Shown: positions 50,485 through 58,540 of the stretch, piece after piece | Numbering within the stretch: the stretch's first letter is position 1 | How the letters are laid out: each line of letters opens with the position of its first letter | Made by a program: the position numbers and the translations under genes | Notes under the pieces: generated by a model | What the model was told of the DNA's origin: nothing | The model's database searches: none | The model's input: only the letters and a program-made list of their open reading frames with translations | From: Candidatus Yanofskybacteria bacterium RIFCSPHIGHO2_01_FULL_41_26 | GTDB taxonomy: Bacteria > Patescibacteriota > Minisyncoccia > 2-02-FULL-40-12 > GWA2-44-9 | Length of the DNA stretch: 64,000 nt | Assembly (NCBI GenBank): GCA_001794055.1 | Contig: MGJB01000015.1 | Span: 4,264-68,263, forward strand | Direction: 5' to 3'

Positions 50485-50560
50485 TGGAGCCGCCTCCCAG
50501 ATTTGCACTGGGGACCTTCTCGTTACGAGTGAGATGCTCTACTGGCTGAGCTAAGGCGGC
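50485..50560 (-). tRNA. tRNA-Thr (anticodon CGU)
   Basis: Manual fold: acceptor GCCGCCU/AGGCGGC, D arm GCUC/GAGC, anticodon loop CUCGUAA, T arm; one A-C mismatch in anticodon stem; T-loop UGCAAAU atypical. Confidence 0.7.
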
Positions 50561-50623
50561 ATTGATTATATTTAGGTAATTATATCAAAAAATTCTTTTT
50601 TTACAACGCATTTTTTGATATTT

Positions 50624-50660
50624 TGAGCGGGATAGTGGATGACCTTAGAACCTATTGGCA
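50624..50660. repeat. ~36-bp direct repeat, copy 1 (hairpin with conserved loop ttagaacctattggca)
   Basis: gagcgggatagtggatgaccttagaacctattggca vs copy at 50986. Confidence 0.7.
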
Positions 50661-50985: not shown

Positions 50986-51021
50986 TCAAGTCTTGGAGCG
51001 GGATAGTGAATGACGTTAGAA
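50986..51021. repeat. ~36-bp direct repeat, copy 2
   Basis: gagcgggatagtgaatgacgttagaacctattggca; stem covaries (ggatg/catcc vs atgac/gtcat). Confidence 0.7.
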
Positions 51022-51057
51022 CCTATTGGCAGTCATCTAATGATTTGTTTTATATAC

Positions 51058-51450
51058 CTAACTTGCCAGGGAATCAGTGTTAACTATAGCTGGCATTAAG
51101 CCCACCGATATGCCAGTGCTAAACTGAGTAACGGCTGAAGAGACAAAACTGCCTACCACGAGCCTTACTTGCGGTTGTGGTATCGCAACTTCACTAAAAG
51201 CTGTAACTGCTAAATCGGGTTTATCCATAGCCCCAAAAGAAGCTAACTGGTTATTTGCATTCTCCATTATTGGGTTGGTTATGCTATCAACCTGTCCTTT
51301 TCCAAAAATAATCATCCCCACTATTCCTAAAATTTTTCCTACATTTTTTCTATTCATTACACTAAATTTATCATAAAAAAGAGTAAAAATCAATATCGTG
51401 TCCTCGTTTCGGTTCTGATAATCAAATTTTGTCTCATAGTACTCTTGCAC
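51058..51450 (-). CDS. Small hydrophobic protein (130 aa), candidate second effector
   Basis: Hydrophobic segments ILGIVGMIIFG and LVVGSFVSSAVTQFSTGISVGLMPAIV; immediately downstream of cyclase B. Confidence 0.45.
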   Translation of the reverse strand: MQEYYETKFDYQNRNEDTILIFTLFYDKFSVMNRKNVGKILGIVGMIIFGKGQVDSITNPIMENANNQLASFGAMDKPDLAVTAFSEVAIPQPQVRLVVGSFVSSAVTQFSTGISVGLMPAIVNTDSLAS

Positions 51451-51518
51451 AAAAATTTAATGTGGACTGTCAACAATGCATGATGGACAGTTTTTAAGAG
51501 CCCATGCACAACATATTT

Positions 51519-52289
51519 CTATATGGGCAACATAAATTTATTTTTATAGATATTTCTATCTTTCCAAGTAAACTTATTCCACATCGGCATTTTTATAAAA
51601 AAGTTCCCACTTCTAAATTTAATAGATTTATTTATTCTTTTGTAAACTTCTTCGGAAATACAAACCCTCAAGTCTTCTGTTGTATTAGACAAAAATCCTA
51701 AAACCGATGGCTTAGCCAGAGAAGATAGTTTTACTGCATAATTGGTGGCGTTTCCTACCCAGACCAAATCATTGTTATTTTCTCCTCGTATACCACCACG
51801 AACAACCAAAATTTTACCAACATCAACTCCTATTCCAATATCAAAATTCAATCCGAATAGTTTCTTATTTTCTCTAAAATATCCCTGAATTCTTGGCTTT
51901 AGAATTTCTTTTACAAACCAAGACATCTGTAGTCCAGCCCTGACAGCATTTGTGCATTTACTACTACCTATAAAAACTACAAGAACCCCATCTCCATTGA
52001 AACTTCGTAGTTCCCCCCCATTCCCTCTTGCTATTTGAGCAACTCCCCAAAGGAATGATTTATACATTTTTACTGCCGTTTCTCTGCGAAATGCATCAAC
52101 AATTTTAGTGGATTCTTTAATATCTATGAAAAGCATTGCAAGGTCAAGTTCCTTTCCATAATTTCCAAGTTGAATATCATCTATTTCGGGTATAACATAA
52201 CCAGAAGCAATCTCGTATTTATCTGTAAAGCAATTTCTTATCTGCTTTTCTAGTTCTTCCTTAGTAACCATATGAAAAAAAATAAACAA
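51519..52289 (-). CDS. Class III nucleotidyl cyclase (cyclase B), Pycsar PycC-like
   Basis: Cyclase homology domain motifs: LFIDIKEST (metal Asp), RSFNGDGVLVVF (second Asp), DLVWVGNATNYAVKLSS (transition-state Asn). Confidence 0.75.
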   Translation of the reverse strand: MFIFFHMVTKEELEKQIRNCFTDKYEIASGYVIPEIDDIQLGNYGKELDLAMLFIDIKESTKIVDAFRRETAVKMYKSFLWGVAQIARGNGGELRSFNGDGVLVVFIGSSKCTNAVRAGLQMSWFVKEILKPRIQGYFRENKKLFGLNFDIGIGVDVGKILVVRGGIRGENNNDLVWVGNATNYAVKLSSLAKPSVLGFLSNTTEDLRVCISEEVYKRINKSIKFRSGNFFIKMPMWNKFTWKDRNIYKNKFMLPI

Positions 52290-52767
52290 TATAGCCTAAC
52301 AATATCAGGGCGCTTCCTGACATAAACAGAATAACGGCATATTTAAAGCGAGTGTGTTTTTCAGAGGCTATTTTAGAATTAATATAAACCTGGTTCAATA
52401 ATTCGTTCTCGTATTTGTTTTCTGTTAAATCGTCTATCTTTTTCTGATAATCAGACTTAGACATATTATTAATACTGCCGAAATATGTTACAGACAAAGA
52501 TGATTGCGGGGCGTTTAGTTTAGGACTTACGGCCAATATAGACAAAACTATACTTATTAGAAAAAAAATAATCCCAGTCAGGGATATAAAGAAAAGGGAG
52601 AGGTCGCATATTAGATAGGTTTCCTCTATTGCTCTTAAAATATGTGGGGCGATAATAGTTAGTATGATTCCTTGAAATGCCAAAAATATACTAACCTTGT
52701 GGTCTGCCGAATTAATCCATCCCTGTATTCTATTCAGTGTATCTTTTAGAAATTCAGTTTTATTCAT
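52261..52767 (-). CDS. Multi-TM small protein, Pycsar PycTM-like effector candidate
   Basis: 168 aa with 3 hydrophobic helices; translationally coupled (4-nt overlap) to upstream cyclase and overlapping downstream cyclase. Confidence 0.6.
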   Translation of the reverse strand: MNKTEFLKDTLNRIQGWINSADHKVSIFLAFQGIILTIIAPHILRAIEETYLICDLSLFFISLTGIIFFLISIVLSILAVSPKLNAPQSSLSVTYFGSINNMSKSDYQKKIDDLTENKYENELLNQVYINSKIASEKHTRFKYAVILFMSGSALILLGYIVYFFSYGY

Positions 52768-53591
52768 TCATCTAATTTTAATATTTCTTGACAAAAGTTC
52801 TTTCCATGTATCTCGCACCATCTAACAGGAGTCATTCTGTACGCCTTGCTGAAATCAAAATTCTTGTCTTGTTGTACATTCATAGTATCCCAAGCCTTCC
52901 TTTTTACGTCATTAGGACATCCACAAGTATGAAGAACTGATTCAGAGTTATCTTTTAGGAATACATCGAATACCCTTTCCGAAACTATCAAATCATTTTC
53001 TCCTCCGATTGAAGCAAGTTTAGCAGCCATATTAACTGGCTTTCCAGCCCAAACCTCATTGCTTTTATCTGTTTTACCCTCCATTACTCGAATCCCGATT
53101 CGCTTTACCAGGACAGTTTTTCTGTCCATTCCTATATGACAACTTAATTTTTCCATATTTTCTGGCAATACCACTTCGTCAGCCATAACAAAACCTACTA
53201 TGGTTTTGAAGGTAATTGCTGATGCCAAGGCATGATATCCACGGTTACTGTTAAAAAGCCCGAATGCTCCATCGCCTCGCACGTCAATATAAGAGGCTCC
53301 GAATTCATTTAAGACTTTCACAGCAGTACCAGTAAAATATTGGTATATGCTTGCTGTAAATTTATCTTGTTTCTGTGCGCTCAGTTGAGTAGAGTTCTTC
53401 ATGTCTATATAAACACAGACGACATCATTAAGTCTCCACCAAGTATTAGATTCGAGAGGTACAGTGTCAGTTAGAGGAATTCTATCCTTCTGCTCAACCT
53501 GCTCTCCTTGCCTAAACCTTTCTGTGGTCGAATCTATAATATTCAGAACGCTCTCAAGGAATTGATTATTTCTATTTATACTCATGGGCAA
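52764..53591 (-). CDS. Class III nucleotidyl cyclase (cyclase A) with Cys/His-containing C-terminal tail, PycC-like
   Basis: VYIDMKNST, YIDVRGDGAFGLF, EVWAGKPVNMAAKLAS cyclase motifs; C-term HTCGC...WCEIH...FC. Confidence 0.75.
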   Translation of the reverse strand: MPMSINRNNQFLESVLNIIDSTTERFRQGEQVEQKDRIPLTDTVPLESNTWWRLNDVVCVYIDMKNSTQLSAQKQDKFTASIYQYFTGTAVKVLNEFGASYIDVRGDGAFGLFNSNRGYHALASAITFKTIVGFVMADEVVLPENMEKLSCHIGMDRKTVLVKRIGIRVMEGKTDKSNEVWAGKPVNMAAKLASIGGENDLIVSERVFDVFLKDNSESVLHTCGCPNDVKRKAWDTMNVQQDKNFDFSKAYRMTPVRWCEIHGKNFCQEILKLDE

Positions 53592-53678
53592 GAATATAGC
53601 AAAAACTGGCTGAAATAGCCAGTCTTATTATCAGAAATTAAAAAGCGGATTGATATTATCGCACCGCACTTTATTCGA

Positions 53679-53876
53679 CTAAATTTGATAGCCGAATAAT
53701 CTCCAGGTAGTTTCACTATTCGGATGACATTTCATCTGATGCACTTGAATAAGTGACCTTTTGACGTTCAGATGGCAAGACGGACATCTCAAGCAGCAGG
53801 ATTCTCTGGACCTAAAACTATTTGTGTTGTGATTATTACAATCGCATTGATGAGTACAGTCTCGTGAGTGTTTCAT
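53679..53876 (-). CDS. Doubtful Cys/His/Asn-rich small ORF (65 aa)
   Basis: Start abuts stop of upstream ORF; composition unusual; may be non-coding. Confidence 0.2.
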   Translation of the reverse strand: MKHSRDCTHQCDCNNHNTNSFRSRESCCLRCPSCHLNVKRSLIQVHQMKCHPNSETTWRLFGYQI

Positions 53877-54136
53877 TATACCTCCGATTTCATTGAACTT
53901 TCTTTCCAGAGAGATTCTTTTACCACATTTCCTTGTTCGTCTTTGAAAGCCACAAATATTAGTACGCCAGACCTTACACTGGCAACTCCTTGGACAAATT
54001 CAGTGAATACACGTCCATCGGGAAGAGTATGGCTGTAGAGTTGGATAGAAGGATTGGAGTCAGACCTTCCTAAATGATTTCTCTTGCAAGCCTTTGCCAT
54101 AAGTTCACATGCCCAAAGGTTGTGGGACACCATCAT
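53876..54136 (-). CDS. Hypothetical protein (86 aa)
   Basis: Part of 3-4 gene overlapping operon; no domain recognised. Confidence 0.45.
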   Translation of the reverse strand: MMVSHNLWACELMAKACKRNHLGRSDSNPSIQLYSHTLPDGRVFTEFVQGVASVRSGVLIFVAFKDEQGNVVKESLWKESSMKSEV

Positions 54137-54405
54137 GATTGGTGGCTCCTTTTAATATCAATACCAGAAACAACACAAACAGCTTGCATTGCAAATTTTA
54201 CTGGCTCTGGAACTACGAAACCATAGGGTGTAGCGTCCTTTGGCGGTTCGGCAACTTTTTCTATATTTAATCCGCTCCCATAACCTGCATAACTAGCAGT
54301 ACCAGTAATGAGCATTGCCCCATCATTCAGGACAAGACCCATACCGCTGTCGTTATTAAAAACAAACACATCGCCAGGCTTGAAGTTGGTTCTTCTTTTT
54401 GCCAT
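54133..54405 (-). CDS. Hypothetical protein (90 aa)
   Basis: ATGA overlap with neighbours. Confidence 0.45.
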   Translation of the reverse strand: MAKRRTNFKPGDVFVFNNDSGMGLVLNDGAMLITGTASYAGYGSGLNIEKVAEPPKDATPYGFVVPEPVKFAMQAVCVVSGIDIKRSHQS

Positions 54406-54408
54406 TCT

Positions 54409-54810
54409 TTACTCCTTCTCTTCCTCAAGATAGATATCCAGGTGATGTCCTCCAGCACAAAGTTTGATTTTCAGAACCTTGGTCTCTTTTTCAGACCATT
54501 GCACTGTGAGATGAAGTCTTTCGACCCCAGCCTCGGTTATTTTGGCTCTAACTCTTTGACAGAATACCTCTTGGTCAGGAAGTGGCATATGCGCAAATCG
54601 AGAAAAAACTTCCAAGTTATCAAAGAACAGTTCAGTACCCGTATCGACTGACGGAATACGGTAAGGTGGATTGCTTTTCTCTCCAGAGAAAGCCCTAGCC
54701 ATATTCTGTTCTCGCCATCCATCAGGAGATTCATAACCTTCAAAAAGGTCTTTCAAGTTTCCATGAACAGCATCCCTATAAGCAATGACTGGAACAGCGA
54801 CTTTTTGCAC
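54409..54810 (-). CDS. Hypothetical protein (133 aa)
   Basis: First gene of overlapping operon; higher GC than cyclase block. Confidence 0.45.
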   Translation of the reverse strand: MQKVAVPVIAYRDAVHGNLKDLFEGYESPDGWREQNMARAFSGEKSNPPYRIPSVDTGTELFFDNLEVFSRFAHMPLPDQEVFCQRVRAKITEAGVERLHLTVQWSEKETKVLKIKLCAGGHHLDIYLEEEKE

Positions 54811-55017
54811 GTTTTACTCCTTGAATACTGCTACAACATACTACCATAGATTAGAGTTTTTGCAAGTTTGAAAACCGCATTGGTCAATACTTTTTATGGA
54901 AATTACCTGTATTTTTAGTGTAATTTATATGTAAAATCGAGTAATTTGATGTTTAAATAAAGCAATTTCGAGGCATCAGAGAATATTAAGGATATATTAT
55001 AACCAACCATCTGGGCA

Positions 55018-55371
55018 TCAGAAAAAGTTGTTCCAGATTGCTTTGACTATATAAAGTCCAATAAGCAGAGTCGACATCATAAGAAGATAAAGTCCCAAAG
55101 ACAAAACACCTCTTTTATCATCTGCCAGCGTTGCCCCTTGTAATTTTCCAACAATGATAAGGGCTAGACTGACGATTGCCACAATGTATAAAGTAAGACC
55201 TACCTCTGGTGAATACATGTTGCTGTTGCAACTGGAAAAGGGCTTTATGCCTCTAGGAACCATAAAACCCGCTACCAGGTGCAACCTTTCGGTCGCAATA
55301 TGTGGGTTTCCCCACATAACGCAGTGCATGCCCTGATAACGGGATTTATATGCACTGCGATTTGATGCCAT
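55018..55371 (-). CDS. Hypothetical membrane protein (117 aa) flanked by ~30-nt direct repeats
   Basis: Repeats attataaccaa...tctgggcatcagaaaa at 54996-55026 and 55419-55472. Confidence 0.45.
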   Translation of the reverse strand: MASNRSAYKSRYQGMHCVMWGNPHIATERLHLVAGFMVPRGIKPFSSCNSNMYSPEVGLTLYIVAIVSLALIIVGKLQGATLADDKRGVLSLGLYLLMMSTLLIGLYIVKAIWNNFF

Positions 55372-56451
55372 GCCCCACAGTATCTTGTCGGGTTGTAGGC
55401 GGTTAAATTGTTAAATACATTATAACCAAATAGGGTAATTTTTCAATGAGTGGAATCTGGGCATCAGAAAATAAAATACTTGAACTTATTGCCCAAAAAT
55501 GTTATAATGTAAGAGTAGGCTTCTGGGAATACTCCCAAGGGGTCTGTGAGAACTCAAAAACGATAGTAGGTTGCACTAGCCCATCAGAGTTTCATTGGTT
55601 AAGCACTGATTGCTAGTATTATTTCTCCCATTGGGTTAGGCAAAAATCCAATGAAACTCCCCAGTGAGAGGAATAATGAAAGTAATCAGTGTTTTTATTT
55701 GGTTCAGCAAGGGTTCTGATGAAGATAAATTAATATTCCAAAATAGAGCAATCGAGCAGGGCAACAGTTCAACTACTGACCCTGGAAACTAAGGAGCATA
55801 AGACCTTACTACAATCCTTAGGGCGTGTTTTATAGGGTTTTGAGCAGAGAGGACTACAGATGAGAAACTCTCAAAGGCGGTATCGGGCACCTATCGCCAA
55901 GACTTGAAATAAAAGGCGGCAAAATGGAATGCTGGTTAGCCAGTAATTCAAATTAGCAAACTTATATAGTTACTAAAGCGAATCTGCAGTAGGCACACAC
56001 GACATTAAAGAAGGAGTGATGTGTGGGGCAGGATAAGGAGGAAACTACAAAGCATCTGATTATATTATTTAATTATTTTAATTCTGCATGACGACAGTAT
56101 AGGATTGGCATCTGGAATGTGGGCTTTTTTAAGAGCTGGACATGCCCGAGTCGCTTCGCAGGCTCCAGCCCTGAAGCGAAGCCCTACGAGGGCAGTCAGC
56201 GAGGACGTGTCCGAGATGAGACAGCCCGCCACATGTAGAGGGCGGCTTTTATATCACGACTCAACCTTATGCTGACGACATACTACCATTTGGAGTTTAA
56301 CTACTAGAACAAAACCTATCATAGGTTGCGAAATGTATGCCCAATATGGCTACTACTATAAACCTCGTATAAACAAAGAAAATAAGCGCATTTTTACTGA
56401 GTTTCTTCCGTAATATTGGGTTGTCATCTATTTGAATAGTTTCTTGGTGAG

Positions 56452-56688
56452 TTGTTGGTTGTTAGAATTAAGGTACCGCTGGAAGGCGGTTTTATGTTAT
56501 CAAAAAACGCATTACAAGAATTCAAGATTGTTTGGAAAGAAGAATTTGGCGAAGACTTGCCAGATAACTTAGCCCTTGAGGAAGGGGTCAATCTTCTAAC
56601 TCTACTCGACCAGATTTATCGTCCCGTCAAAAAAGAATGGATGGATGAAAAGGACAAGAGTGATTTTCCAGATTTACCCGCCCCTTAA
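56452..56688 (+). CDS. Small protein upstream of integrase (possible recombination directionality factor; speculative)
   Basis: 78 aa acidic ORF in integrase orientation. Confidence 0.3.
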   Translation: MLVVRIKVPLEGGFMLSKNALQEFKIVWKEEFGEDLPDNLALEEGVNLLTLLDQIYRPVKKEWMDEKDKSDFPDLPAP

Positions 56689-56794: not shown

Positions 56795-58540
56795 GTGAAA
56801 AACACATTAAACAATAAAGAAATAACCTACTTTCTATATTGCCGAAAGTCTACAGATGAAAAAGATAGACAGGTTTTAAGTTTAGACTCTCAAGAATCAG
56901 AGTCTCTAAAGAGATTTACCGACTTGAAGATTAAAAAATTGCCCAGAGAATCTGTGAGTGCCTTTGAGCCATACAAGCGACCAGTTTTTGCGGATATGAT
57001 TGAGCGCATTAAAAAAGGAGAAGCCCAAGGTATTGTTGCCTGGCATCCTGACCGACTTTCCCGAAATCCTATTGAGGCTGCCCAAATCATCTATTTACTG
57101 GACATAGGAGTCTTAAAGGATTTGAAATTTTGTAATTATTACTTTGACAATTCACCAGAAGGTAAAATGATGCTCCAAATTACTTTATCTCAATCAAAAT
57201 ACTCTTCAGATAAGTTAAGCGGAGATGTTAAGAGGGGTATAGATAAAAAGGTTGACCTTGGGTGGCGACCAGGATTAGCCCCATTAGGATATCTCAACAG
57301 CAAAACCCAAGCCAAAGGAGAACAGTTTGTCTATAATGACCCTTTGAGATTCGAGACTGTTAAGAAAGTCCTCAAGACAATGCTCACTGGTAATTTTACT
57401 GCTCCGAAGCTACTCAAGTATGCTAATGACGAACTTTGCTTGCGTCTTCCAGCGACTAAAAAGCGCCCCGAAAGAAAGTTAAGAATCAGCCACCTTTATC
57501 GAATTCTAACTAACCCATTTTACTATGGCTGGTATGAGTGGGTAGCAGGTAGTGGTAACTGGGTTCAAGGCAAGCACGAGGCAATGATTACAGAAGCAGA
57601 ATTTGACCGCATACAATTTCTGTTGGGCAGAAAAGGTAGACCACGCCCCAAAACCCATAAATTCGCTTTTACGGGCATTATGAAGTGCTCTTGTGGGGCA
57701 GGCATCACTGCGGAGGAAAAGTTTAAGAGGCAAAAGAATGGAAATACCCACCACTATATCTACTATCATTGTACCAGAAAAGTTAATCCCGAATGTATTG
57801 AAAAAGCAGTTGAATTAAAGGAATTAACAAGGCAGGTGAATGTCATTCTTGGTAGATTTACAATATCTGACCGTTTTCAGAAATGGGCGTTAAAGTATCT
57901 GCACGAATTAAGAAAAAAGGAAGCTACCGTCAGAGAGCAATCTATTAGTGCCAAGCATCGAGAGTACGAGAGGATAACGACTCAACTAGATAATTTAGTC
58001 TTAAAATATACATCGCCAGACAACGAGGATGGAAGGATTTTAAGCAATGAAGAATACGTGCCACTCCGTTCTAGGCTACTCAAATATAAATCGGGGTTAG
58101 CCTCAGAATTAGCCCAGCAAGATAAGAAAATTGAGGAATGGGTAGAGTTAACCGAACGAACTTTCAACTTTGCCCGCTACGCCAAGATTTGGTTCGCCAA
58201 AGGAGACTTGGAAACCAAGAAAGCCATATTTTCGTGTTTGGGTTCGGACTTCTTACTAAAAGACCGAAAAGTCGCAGTTAGTATGAGAAAACCTATCAGT
58301 TTTATCTTTGACGGACTTCCGAAAATACAAACTGAACTACAAAGGTTAGAACCTCTTGGAAATGAGATAAACATTAGGGATATTGAAATTTTCTCTCAAC
58401 AATTTCCCATCATGAGCGGGATACGAGAATCGGACTCGTGTCTCAACCTTGGGAAGGTCGCGTATTACCACTATACGAATCCCGCGTTAATACCCAAGCA
58501 CATACCAAAACCATTTTTTATAGTTTGGCATTTTGCTTAA
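56795..58540 (+). CDS. Large serine recombinase (integrase)
   Basis: N-terminal resolvase catalytic motif YCRKSTDEKDRQVLSLDSQE, recombinase domain, Cys-rich zinc-ribbon region (CSCGAG...YYHCTRK). Confidence 0.85.
   Translation: MKNTLNNKEITYFLYCRKSTDEKDRQVLSLDSQESESLKRFTDLKIKKLPRESVSAFEPYKRPVFADMIERIKKGEAQGIVAWHPDRLSRNPIEAAQIIYLLDIGVLKDLKFCNYYFDNSPEGKMMLQITLSQSKYSSDKLSGDVKRGIDKKVDLGWRPGLAPLGYLNSKTQAKGEQFVYNDPLRFETVKKVLKTMLTGNFTAPKLLKYANDELCLRLPATKKRPERKLRISHLYRILTNPFYYGWYEWVAGSGNWVQGKHEAMITEAEFDRIQFLLGRKGRPRPKTHKFAFTGIMKCSCGAGITAEEKFKRQKNGNTHHYIYYHCTRKVNPECIEKAVELKELTRQVNVILGRFTISDRFQKWALKYLHELRKKEATVREQSISAKHREYERITTQLDNLVLKYTSPDNEDGRILSNEEYVPLRSRLLKYKSGLASELAQQDKKIEEWVELTERTFNFARYAKIWFAKGDLETKKAIFSCLGSDFLLKDRKVAVSMRKPISFIFDGLPKIQTELQRLEPLGNEINIRDIEIFSQQFPIMSGIRESDSCLNLGKVAYYHYTNPALIPKHIPKPFFIVWHFA

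What the first reader, a model, noticed from the sequence alone, without database searches (positions are those of the whole stretch)
51058..53591. Tandem dual-cyclase Pycsar-like locus: cyclase, multi-TM effector, second cyclase, small membrane protein
Two separate class III nucleotidyl-cyclase homology-domain proteins (275 and 256 aa), each with the metal-binding Asp pair and the transition-state Asn motif, flank a 168-aa three-helix membrane protein. The overlaps of 4 nt and 29 nt point to translational coupling. A further 130-aa hydrophobic protein follows. A cyclase plus a small TM effector is the Pycsar (cCMP/cUMP) architecture; described Pycsar systems are two-gene units. A cyclase-effector-cyclase unit, possibly sharing one effector or signalling with two different cyclic nucleotides, would be a distinct arrangement. 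Cyclase A also has a Cys/His C-terminal tail of unknown role. The block is much more AT-rich than the core genome and sits in an integrase-bearing island.
Basis: partly seen in the sequence, partly recalled or inferred. Interest (0 to 1): 0.85.

Follow-up and report, generated by a model that had tools for sequence, protein, structure and literature searches.

The report
Pycsar phage-defence locus with two cyclases
This is a genuine Pycsar anti-phage operon in which two different pyrimidine-cyclase genes flank one membrane effector gene; the layout recurs in many bacteria and has been noted in print, so it is a new example of a known system and its only open question is why it has two cyclases.

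Summary
The three core ORFs exist as described, all on the minus strand. Cyclase A (52764-53591) matches PADLOC PycC at E=5e-97 and the solved clade D uridylate cyclase AnPycC (8JSZ) at E=6e-71. The middle gene (52261-52767) is a three-helix PycTM effector (E=4e-42). Cyclase B (51519-52289) matches a different PycC model (E=1e-73) and BcPycC (7R65, E=3e-29). Both cyclases keep the metal Asp pair and the Asn/Lys.

Four details of the finding need correcting.
- The Cys/His tail of cyclase A is the published clade D zinc ribbon.
- The 130-aa ORF has no predicted membrane helix, no family match and no homologue in any of the fetched related loci (L001-L124), so it is not part of the system.
- The 29-nt overlap is more likely 11 nt.
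- The AT-richness is marginal.

The two-cyclase layout is not unique. It occurs in 15 of 53 A-seeded genome loci and in 6 of 28 well-flanked B-seeded metagenome loci. It also occurs on plasmids of cultured Mycobacterium marinum and Arthrobacter, and a 2026 preprint notes "multiple cyclases".

TM-B is a common stand-alone two-gene unit, and the window's TM groups with those. Cyclase A therefore looks like an add-on upstream.

Most likely mechanism (inferred): two independent sensor-cyclases feed one effector.

The parts
52764..53591 (-). Cyclase A: clade D-type PycC (uridylate-cyclase-like), 275 aa from the TTG start. The probable true start is the ATG at 53585 (273 aa). Catalytic D63, D107, N187 and K191. 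Pocket residues Y61, R105 and F110. C-terminal zinc ribbon C223, C225, C259 and H262.
   Evidence: PADLOC PycC PDLC00763 4.8e-97. PDB 8jsz AnPycC 5.7e-71 over residues 8-274, including CxC...CxxH. Residue positions. Gene callers use the 273-aa form.
52261..52767 (-). PycTM effector, 168 aa, three predicted TM helices. Its start overlaps the cyclase A stop by 4 nt (ATGA).
   Evidence: Pfam PF18967 PycTM 3.8e-18. PADLOC PycTM PDLC02364 4.1e-42. Hydropathy. Junction. Its nearest relatives are the TMs of two-gene TM-B loci, at 35-43% identity.
51519..52289 (-). Cyclase B: second PycC of a different lineage (here 'B2a', related to clade B BcPycC). 256 aa from the TTG start, or 250 aa from the ATG at 52271. 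Metal Asp pair and Asn/Lys are intact. Pocket residues are F/N/G where BcPycC has Y50/D94/R97.
   Evidence: PADLOC PycC PDLC02367 1.2e-73. PDB 7r65 2.6e-29. Alignments A1. Junction.
53600..53623 (-). Hairpin (ACTGGCT-ATTTC-AGCCAGT) followed by TTTTT, immediately upstream of cyclase A. It looks like a terminator for the upstream small-ORF cluster, which would make the Pycsar genes a separate transcription unit.
   Evidence: Sequence read directly. The same stem was flagged on the opposite strand by the terminator scan. Function is inferred.
51058..51450 (-). 130-aa ORF (GTG start; an alternative call gives 111 aa). It is NOT part of the system: not hydrophobic, no family match, no homologue in related loci.
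56795..58540 (+). Large serine recombinase (integrase) of the island. Context only, not part of the defence operon.
   Evidence: Pfam Resolvase + Recombinase + Zn_ribbon_recom. PHROG 95 integrase 3.5e-59. Homologues lie within about 3.5 kb of TM-B Pycsar units in 8 other loci.
50485..50560 (-). tRNA-Thr(CGU), on the left edge of the roughly 7.9-kb non-housekeeping block.
58414..58485 (-). tRNA-Gly(CCC), on the right edge of the block. It is overlapped by the 3' end of the recombinase ORF.
55281..55401 (-). LOOT RNA (Rfam RF03000) inside the island, 1.7 kb upstream of cyclase A.
   Evidence: 66.5 bits against a gathering score of 46.4. It is also present next to Pycsar plus a recombinase in L089 and L096.

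Best explanation
A three-gene Pycsar abortive-infection operon, carried on a small tRNA-flanked island that also encodes a serine recombinase.

The core is a canonical two-gene unit: the PycTM effector followed by cyclase B. A clade D-type zinc-ribbon cyclase (A) has been added at its 5' end.

Proposed mechanism. Each cyclase works as its own head-to-tail homodimer and is switched on by a phage cue. Each makes a 3',5'-cyclic pyrimidine mononucleotide, most likely cUMP for both. Either signal opens or oligomerises the single three-helix PycTM in the membrane, which stops growth of the infected cell. Two sensor-cyclases wired to one effector would widen the range of phages detected, or raise signal output against phage nucleases and sponges. 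Thoeris loci with several ThsB sensors and one ThsA effector work in a comparable way (own knowledge).

Shown here: the identity of the three proteins, intact catalytic residues, operon structure, recurrence of the layout, and the modular origin.

Inferred: the nucleotide products, independent homodimer action, and the defence phenotype.
For: Identity:
- PADLOC and Pfam matches for all three proteins.
- Solved homologues 8JSZ and 7R65.
- Both homologues, and EaPycC, crystallise as homodimers.

Catalytic competence:
- The Asp pair and Asn/Lys are kept in both window cyclases and in all full-length A-type relatives.

Modularity:
- From the B side, 22 of 28 loci with at least 900 nt of flank on both sides are plain two-gene TM-B or B-TM units.
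- The top 44 matches of the window's TM all come from loci that contain a B-type cyclase, nearly all of them TB-order units.
- In the window's A subclade, A always sits 5' of whichever native order the B unit has: A-T-B with B2a, and A-B-T with B2b.
- The B partner switches between three lineages (B1, B2a, B2b) within that subclade.
- Other combinations also exist: B-T-B, T-B-B, and A plus two B.

Same-signal argument:
- Cyclase A's pocket (Y/R/F) is a conservative version of AnPycC F60/K104/F109, which makes cUMP.
- A relative of the same A subclade is paired in L003 with a B1 cyclase whose pocket is identical to that of cUMP-making BcPycC, Y50/D94/R97.
- Clades A-D are reported to make cUMP.

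Selection:
- The locus is 100% identical in the five independently assembled contigs I compared, out of at least 23 on record that carry the identical TM protein.
Against: - No biochemical or phenotypic data exist for this locus or for any multi-cyclase Pycsar that I could find.
- Cyclase B's pocket residues (F/N/G) differ at two of the three positions that form BcPycC's restrictive pyrimidine pocket. R97, which occludes guanine, is replaced by Gly. Its product cannot be assigned by homology.
- In the four unbiased (A-seeded) genome loci of the window's subclade, A is never found without a B-type partner. That would also fit an obligate partnership.
- Clade A PycC proteins naturally carry two fused cyclase domains, so hetero-pairing has precedent in this family.
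- The NJ tree has no support values.
Confidence: 0.55

Rival explanations
1. A and B form a heterodimeric cyclase, as mammalian adenylyl cyclase C1/C2 and the fused two-domain clade A PycC do. The two interfacial sites would then be non-equivalent, with one catalytic and one regulatory or differently specific.
For: Class III cyclases act as dimers with active sites built from both protomers (established knowledge). Clade A PycC has two consecutive cyclase domains. The three genes are co-oriented and overlap. All four A-seeded genome members of the window's A subclade carry a B partner.
Against: There is no complementary degeneration: both proteins keep Asp-Asp and Asn/Lys. The B2a and B2b lineages mostly occur alone with their TM. 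The Asn/Lys-less B2b form also occurs alone, so its loss is not compensated by A. B partners only 30-35% identical to each other swap within one A subclade. The genes are separated by the TM gene. AnPycC and BcPycC are homodimers.
Confidence: 0.2
2. The two cyclases make two different cyclic nucleotides, for example cUMP from A and another cNMP from B. The single PycTM would accept both, or one product would regulate the other arm (the relay or amplification idea raised in the 2026 Pucsar preprint).
For: The pocket residues differ: A has Y61/R105/F110, while B has F/N/G/L at the aligned positions. The loss of the bulky Arg that occludes purines in BcPycC could open B's pocket. Pycsar relatives are now known to make cGMP. 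The preprint raises relay-like signalling for multi-cyclase loci.
Against: There is one effector gene only, and it is of the lineage that normally serves B alone. For A to be useful, that effector must respond to A's product. A-type cyclases of one subclade pair with B1 (cUMP-type pocket), B2a and B2b alike. Published clades A-D all make cUMP.
Confidence: 0.17
3. The locus is an accidental fusion of two Pycsar systems after one effector was lost, and one cyclase is a functionless remnant.
For: A-TM and TM-B two-gene units both exist elsewhere. The window order A-TM-B looks like two units sharing the TM.
Against: Both ORFs are intact with all catalytic residues. The same three-gene layout is kept at 56%/33%/60% identity in a Moraniibacteriota genome (L004) and in several metagenome loci. 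Multi-cyclase layouts arose repeatedly. The start and stop codons are tightly coupled.
Confidence: 0.05
4. It is a housekeeping cAMP/cGMP signalling operon rather than a defence system.
For: Pfam sees only a marginal Guanylate_cyc match, just below the gathering score.
Against: The PycC- and PycTM-specific models match at 1e-42 to 1e-97. The locus lies in a recombinase-bearing island between tRNAs. Its distribution across phyla is patchy, and it occurs on plasmids.
Confidence: 0.02

Closest known systems
Anabaena AnPycsar (AnPycC, clade D uridylate cyclase, PDB 8JSZ, with AnPycTM; Nat Commun 2024, PMC11224242)
   Same: Cyclase A aligns over its full length (E=5.7e-71). It has the same catalytic Asp pair and the same CxC...CxxH zinc ribbon. 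Its pocket is near-identical (F60/K104/F109 becomes Y61/R105/F110). The effector is also a PycTM.
   Different: As studied, AnPycsar is one cyclase plus one TM. Here a second cyclase of another lineage follows the TM, and the TM belongs to the lineage that normally partners that second cyclase, not the clade D one.
Burkholderia cepacia BcPycC (clade B uridylate cyclase, PDB 7R65; Tal et al. 2021, as cited in PMC11224242)
   Same: It is the best solved match of cyclase B (E=2.6e-29). It is a single-domain PycC of similar length (229 aa) with the same catalytic motifs.
   Different: Two of its three uracil-selecting residues are changed, and the third conservatively: Y50 becomes F, D94 becomes N and R97 becomes G. 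The product of cyclase B is therefore unassigned.
Clade A PycC (e.g. PaPycC, PDB 6YII), with two consecutive cyclase domains in one polypeptide
   Same: Two cyclase domains serve one Pycsar effector.
   Different: There the domains are fused in a single protein. Here they are separate genes of lineages that also function alone, separated by the effector gene.
Multi-cyclase Pycsar loci already in public records: M. marinum E11 plasmid pRAW (WP_038582395, WP_242412440, with effector WP_038582389 annotated 'Pycsar system effector family protein') and Arthrobacter sp. NtRootC7 plasmid. The Pucsar preprint 10.64898/2026.08.12.744502 adds a general remark on such loci.
   Same: A zinc-ribbon A-type cyclase plus one or two B-type cyclases plus a single PycTM. 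The preprint states that some Pycsar-1 loci encode multiple cyclases.
   Different: Gene orientation differs: A is convergent with the B/TM genes in the actinobacterial plasmids. None of these loci has been tested experimentally as far as I could find.
Type I Thoeris loci with several ThsB sensors and one ThsA effector (own knowledge, not checked here)
   Same: Several signal-producing sensor enzymes sit in one operon and feed one effector. This is the logic I propose for this locus.
   Different: The protein families and the signalling molecule (gcADPR) are unrelated.

Membership tests
[quoted passage not shown] | A PycC-family class III-type nucleotide cyclase | tested here: met
   Cyclase A matches PDLC00763 at 4.8e-97 and cyclase B matches PDLC02367 at 1.2e-73. 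The solved PycC homologues are 8JSZ and 7R65.
[quoted passage not shown] | Catalytic residues intact (two metal-binding Asp; transition-state Asn with a basic residue at +4) | tested here: met
   Cyclase A has D63, D107, N187 and K191. Cyclase B has D in 'FIDIKEST', D in 'NGDG', and N..K in 'NYAVKL'.
[quoted passage not shown] | An adjacent effector gene of the PycTM or PycTIR type in the same operon | tested here: met
   Pfam PF18967 PycTM at 3.8e-18, above the gathering score. PADLOC PycTM at 4.1e-42. Three TM segments. The gene overlaps both cyclase genes.
[quoted passage not shown] | Synthesis of cUMP or cCMP on infection | not testable with these tools
   Requires purified enzymes and LC-MS. 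Only a homology-based prediction is possible for cyclase A (cUMP).
[quoted passage not shown] | Protection against phage by abortive infection | not testable with these tools
   Requires heterologous expression and phage challenge.
Clade D PycC (for cyclase A) | C-terminal zinc ribbon, Cys-x-Cys ... Cys-x-x-His (AnPycC C221, C223, C260, H263) | tested here: met
   C223, C225, C259 and H262 align with the AnPycC ligands. The motif is present in nearly all A-type relatives.
Clade D PycC (for cyclase A) | Pocket residues F60, K104, F109 | tested here: inconclusive
   The window has Y61, R105 and F110. These are conservative changes, and F/Y and K/R/Q/H variation at these positions is common in the family. 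The effect on specificity is untested.
Clade B PycC, BcPycC type (for cyclase B) | Pyrimidine-selecting pocket Y50, D94, R97 | tested here: not met
   Cyclase B has F, N and G at the aligned positions. The B1-type partners in other loci do have Y/D/R. I could not assign cyclase B to one of the published clades A-E because Tal et al. 2021 was not available.
Heterodimeric class III cyclase (C1/C2-like) | Complementary degeneration: one subunit keeps the Asp pair, the other keeps Asn/Arg and the specificity residues | tested here: not met
   Both window cyclases keep the full set. The Asn/Lys-less B2b lineage occurs without any A partner in at least 6 well-flanked loci.
Pucsar (cGMP-producing sister branch) | Guanine-recognising pocket (PfPucC E118, K195) | not tested
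   No PfPucC sequence or structure was available in the PDB copy searched. Only the text of the preprint was read.

The most novel reading that the evidence does not exclude
The clade D-type cyclase of this subclade is a dedicated 'add-on' module that has no effector of its own and docks onto different B-type Pycsar units. In this locus the two cyclases either make different cyclic nucleotides or act as a heterodimer. The single PycTM would then integrate two signals, as an OR gate, an AND gate or a relay. That would be signal-integration logic not yet demonstrated for any cyclic-mononucleotide defence system.
Probability: 0.2. Interest if true: 0.7.

Novelty: new member of a known kind. Interest (0 to 1): 0.35.

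Why it matters
The locus adds a clear Pycsar example. It comes from an uncultured groundwater-type bacterium with a small genome; assignment to the candidate phyla radiation is my inference from the nearest relatives, not a tested result.

The comparative data gathered here frame a tractable question that nobody appears to have tested: why do a fifth to a quarter of these Pycsar loci carry two or three cyclases for one effector?

Two observations give a concrete hypothesis that standard phage-challenge and LC-MS experiments could settle. One zinc-ribbon cyclase subclade always rides upstream of otherwise self-sufficient TM-B or B-TM units, and it swaps partners. This suggests extra sensor-cyclases that broaden phage recognition.

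In itself, however, the locus is an ordinary member of a known defence family.

Tried and rejected
1. Pseudo-heterodimer idea. Some B-type partners (L001, L002 and relatives, 'B2b') have lost the transition-state Asn and Lys while keeping the Asp pair. This looked like C1/C2-style complementation by A. I rejected it because the same Asn-less B2b cyclase occurs alone with its TM in at least 6 loci with ample flanks.

2. The 130-aa and 69-aa ORFs as system components. I rejected both. They have no family matches, tblastn found no homologues in L001-L124 (the iterated HMM search of L001-L053 also found only themselves), and neither has a predicted TM segment.

3. Compositional island argument. 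The GC content is only marginally low and lies within the window's own range.

4. att-type direct repeats at the island ends. None was convincing. The one notable repeat (39 nt, two copies) flanks only the 69-aa ORF.

5. Literature. Tal et al. 2021 (PMC9070634, its DOI and its PMID) is not held. I therefore could not verify my recollection that it reports co-occurring cyclase clades, nor map cyclase B to clades A-E. Searches for 'two cyclase', 'PycC1/2' and 'clades C and D' together with Pycsar found nothing relevant.

6. Viral contigs. No relative of cyclase B was found.

7. Complex structure prediction. Not attempted, because the structure tool takes single chains from the window only.
Full report
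OBSERVATION

The cyclase A stop and the 168-aa start share ATGA, a 4-nt overlap. The 29-nt overlap between the 168-aa gene and cyclase B holds only for the TTG start. The PycC profiles begin at Met7 (ATG at 52271), which gives an 11-nt overlap and a 250-aa protein, and independent gene callers are split between 250 and 256 aa. Cyclase A probably starts at the ATG at 53585 (273 aa).

A hairpin followed by a T-run sits just upstream of cyclase A at 53600-53623. This suggests the three genes are a transcription unit separate from the small ORFs upstream.

WHAT THE GENES ARE

- Pfam sees only a marginal generic cyclase domain in both cyclases. The defence-specific PADLOC models are decisive.
- Cyclase A matches PycC PDLC00763 at 4.8e-97.
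- Cyclase B matches a different PycC model, PDLC02367, at 1.2e-73.
- The middle protein matches PycTM at 4.1e-42 (Pfam PF18967 at 3.8e-18, above threshold). It has three hydrophobic segments.

Against solved structures:
- Cyclase A matches the clade D uridylate cyclase AnPycC (8JSZ) at 5.7e-71 over its whole length.
- Cyclase B matches the clade B uridylate cyclase BcPycC (7R65) at 2.6e-29.
- Both keep the two metal-binding Asp and the Asn with Lys at +4.

The Cys/His tail of cyclase A (C223, C225, C259, H262) aligns with the zinc ligands C221, C223, C260 and H263 of AnPycC. That zinc ribbon is conserved in clade D and needed for AnPycC activity (PMC11224242). It is therefore not an unknown feature.

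The 130-aa ORF has no family match in four libraries and no segment reaching a membrane-helix hydropathy threshold. An iterated HMM search of L001-L053 found only itself, and tblastn against L001-L124 found no match. I exclude it from the system.

HOW COMMON IS THE TWO-CYCLASE LAYOUT

I seeded a scan of one genome per species with cyclase A, which returned 53 loci. ORF calling with iterated HMMs shows that 15 of them carry a second, B-type cyclase beside the zinc-ribbon A-type cyclase and a single PycTM. Four gene orders occur:
- A-TM-B: the window, L003, L004, L039, L050 and L052. In L038 and L045 no TM ORF was detected between A and B.
- A-B-TM: L001, L002, L006, L007, L010 and L029.
- TM-A-B: L005.
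- TM-B-A: L012.

These loci come from Gammaproteobacteria, Bacteroidota, Dehalococcoidia, Omnitrophota and Moraniibacteriota. The fraction is a lower bound, because many contigs end near the genes.

I then seeded a metagenome scan with cyclase B relatives, which returned 71 loci. Among the 28 with at least 900 nt of flank on both sides, 22 are plain two-gene units and 6 carry two or more cyclases. The multi-cyclase forms include B-TM-B and TM-B-B.

Plasmids of cultured bacteria show the same thing. M. marinum pRAW has an A-type zinc-ribbon cyclase, a B-type cyclase and a gene RefSeq already names 'Pycsar system effector family protein'. An Arthrobacter plasmid has one A-type cyclase, two B-type cyclases and a TM.

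[quoted passage not shown] Clade A PycC proteins are reported to contain two fused cyclase domains.

The arrangement is therefore recurrent and has been noticed. I found no experimental study of it.

ANATOMY AND ORIGIN

The B-type partners fall into signature groups:
- B1 has the same pocket as BcPycC (Y/D/R).
- B2a is the window's type. It has F/N/G in the pocket and the motif 'GNATNYAVKL'.
- B2b lacks the Asn and Lys.
- B3 is found in Bacteroidota.

B2a normally occurs as TM-B and B2b as B-TM, without any A-type gene.

The top 44 matches of the window's TM all come from loci that contain a B-type cyclase. Nearly all are TB-order units, at 35-43% identity for the closest.

In a neighbour-joining tree of A-type cyclases, the window falls in a subclade whose members are all dual. 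A sits 5' of whichever order the B unit natively has, and the B partner changes between B1, B2a and B2b within the subclade. Two caveats apply. Only four members (L001-L004) come from the unbiased A-seeded scan, and the tree has no support values. Other dual loci arise elsewhere in the tree.

The simplest reading is that the window holds a self-sufficient TM-B Pycsar to which a clade D-type cyclase has been added upstream.

MECHANISM

I favour two independent homodimeric sensor-cyclases feeding one PycTM effector (confidence about 0.55).
- Both enzymes are catalytically complete.
- Their solved relatives are homodimers.
- The modules shuffle freely.
- Cyclase A's pocket (Y61/R105/F110) is a conservative version of the cUMP-making AnPycC pocket.
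- A cyclases of the same subclade pair with B1 cyclases that have the BcPycC cUMP pocket. That argues for a common signal.

The heterodimer rival (about 0.2) lacks the expected complementary degeneration. I first thought the Asn-less B2b partners showed it, but the same proteins occur alone with their TM.

The two-signal rival (about 0.17) stays open. Cyclase B replaces two of the three residues that make BcPycC's restrictive pyrimidine pocket, including the Arg said to occlude guanine.

Nucleotide products and the defence phenotype are inferred, not shown.

CONTEXT

The block from about 50.56 to 58.41 kb lies between tRNA-Thr and tRNA-Gly.
- On its left are ftsX, ftsE, prfB and ftsH.
- On its right are divIC, lepA and murJ.
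- Inside it are a large serine recombinase, unannotatable small ORFs and a LOOT RNA.

Recombinase homologues lie within about 3.5 kb of TM-B units in eight other loci. tRNA genes adjoin many of the TM-B units examined.

The 'island' reading is therefore supported. The AT-richness argument is weak: the block has 34-35% GC, and housekeeping bins of the same window reach 33.9-36.4%.

The region is 100% identical in the five independently assembled contigs I compared, out of at least 23 on record that carry the identical TM protein.

VERDICT

This is a real and correctly recognised Pycsar locus and a new member of a known kind. The dual-cyclase feature is a common, previously remarked but functionally untested sub-architecture. 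Interest is moderate to low (0.35). The most novel reading still open is signal integration by two different cyclases, which I put at about 0.2.

Noticed in passing
window 55281-55401 (-); L096 1075-1199; L089 2231-2349: LOOT RNA (Rfam RF03000), a motif whose function I do not know and did not look up, lies in the island 1.7 kb upstream of cyclase A. It recurs in two other loci that also hold a TM-B Pycsar unit and a serine-recombinase homologue. It may be a component of this family of integrative elements.
   Followed up: partly
window 50622-50660 and 50993-51031; partial copy 58345-58375: A 39-nt direct repeat (92% identical) flanks the 69-aa ORF. Each copy lies just upstream of a promoter-like site, one before the ORF and one before tRNA-Thr. 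A 14-nt core of the repeat recurs next to tRNA-Gly at the other end of the island. None of these matches is expected by chance.
   Followed up: partly
window 56556-56558 (inside the 78-aa ORF 56452-56688); L131 1-257, L132 contig end: One independently assembled contig (L131) is identical to the window up to position 56556 and then continues with unrelated sequence. Another (L132) ends at 56558. This breakpoint is 240 nt upstream of the serine recombinase start and may be a strain variant or a recombination site.
   Followed up: partly
L105, L107, L108, L113, L116, L117, L118, L121 (and L001, L002 with an A partner): A lineage of PycC-like cyclases ('B2b', with motifs FYIDMRKSR / SFNGDG / LYVAVEL) has lost the transition-state Asn and the +4 Lys but keeps the metal Asp pair. 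It still occurs as a stand-alone two-gene unit with PycTM. Whether and how it is catalytically active is unclear.
   Followed up: partly
window 53679-55371 (-): A cluster of five small co-oriented ORFs (65, 86, 90, 133 and 117 aa; the 86-, 90- and 133-aa ORFs have overlapping or abutting ends) lies between the Pycsar operon and the recombinase. None matches Pfam or PHROGs, and none has a homologue in the other loci.
   Followed up: partly
window 55400-56450: About 1 kb next to the LOOT RNA has no ORF longer than 56 aa on either strand. The two best promoter-like sites of the region diverge from 55419-55508.
   Followed up: no
window 58414-58540: The 581-aa serine recombinase ORF reads through the tRNA-Gly gene on the opposite strand. 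This is consistent with integration into, or next to, the tRNA gene.
   Followed up: no
L126 (Arthrobacter sp. NtRootC7 plasmid AP024638, 142916-149692): This plasmid carries a Pycsar locus with three cyclases (one zinc-ribbon A-type and two B-type) and one TM protein, next to a DNA invertase and a transposase. All of these genes are annotated only as 'hypothetical protein' or 'guanylate cyclase'.
   Followed up: partly
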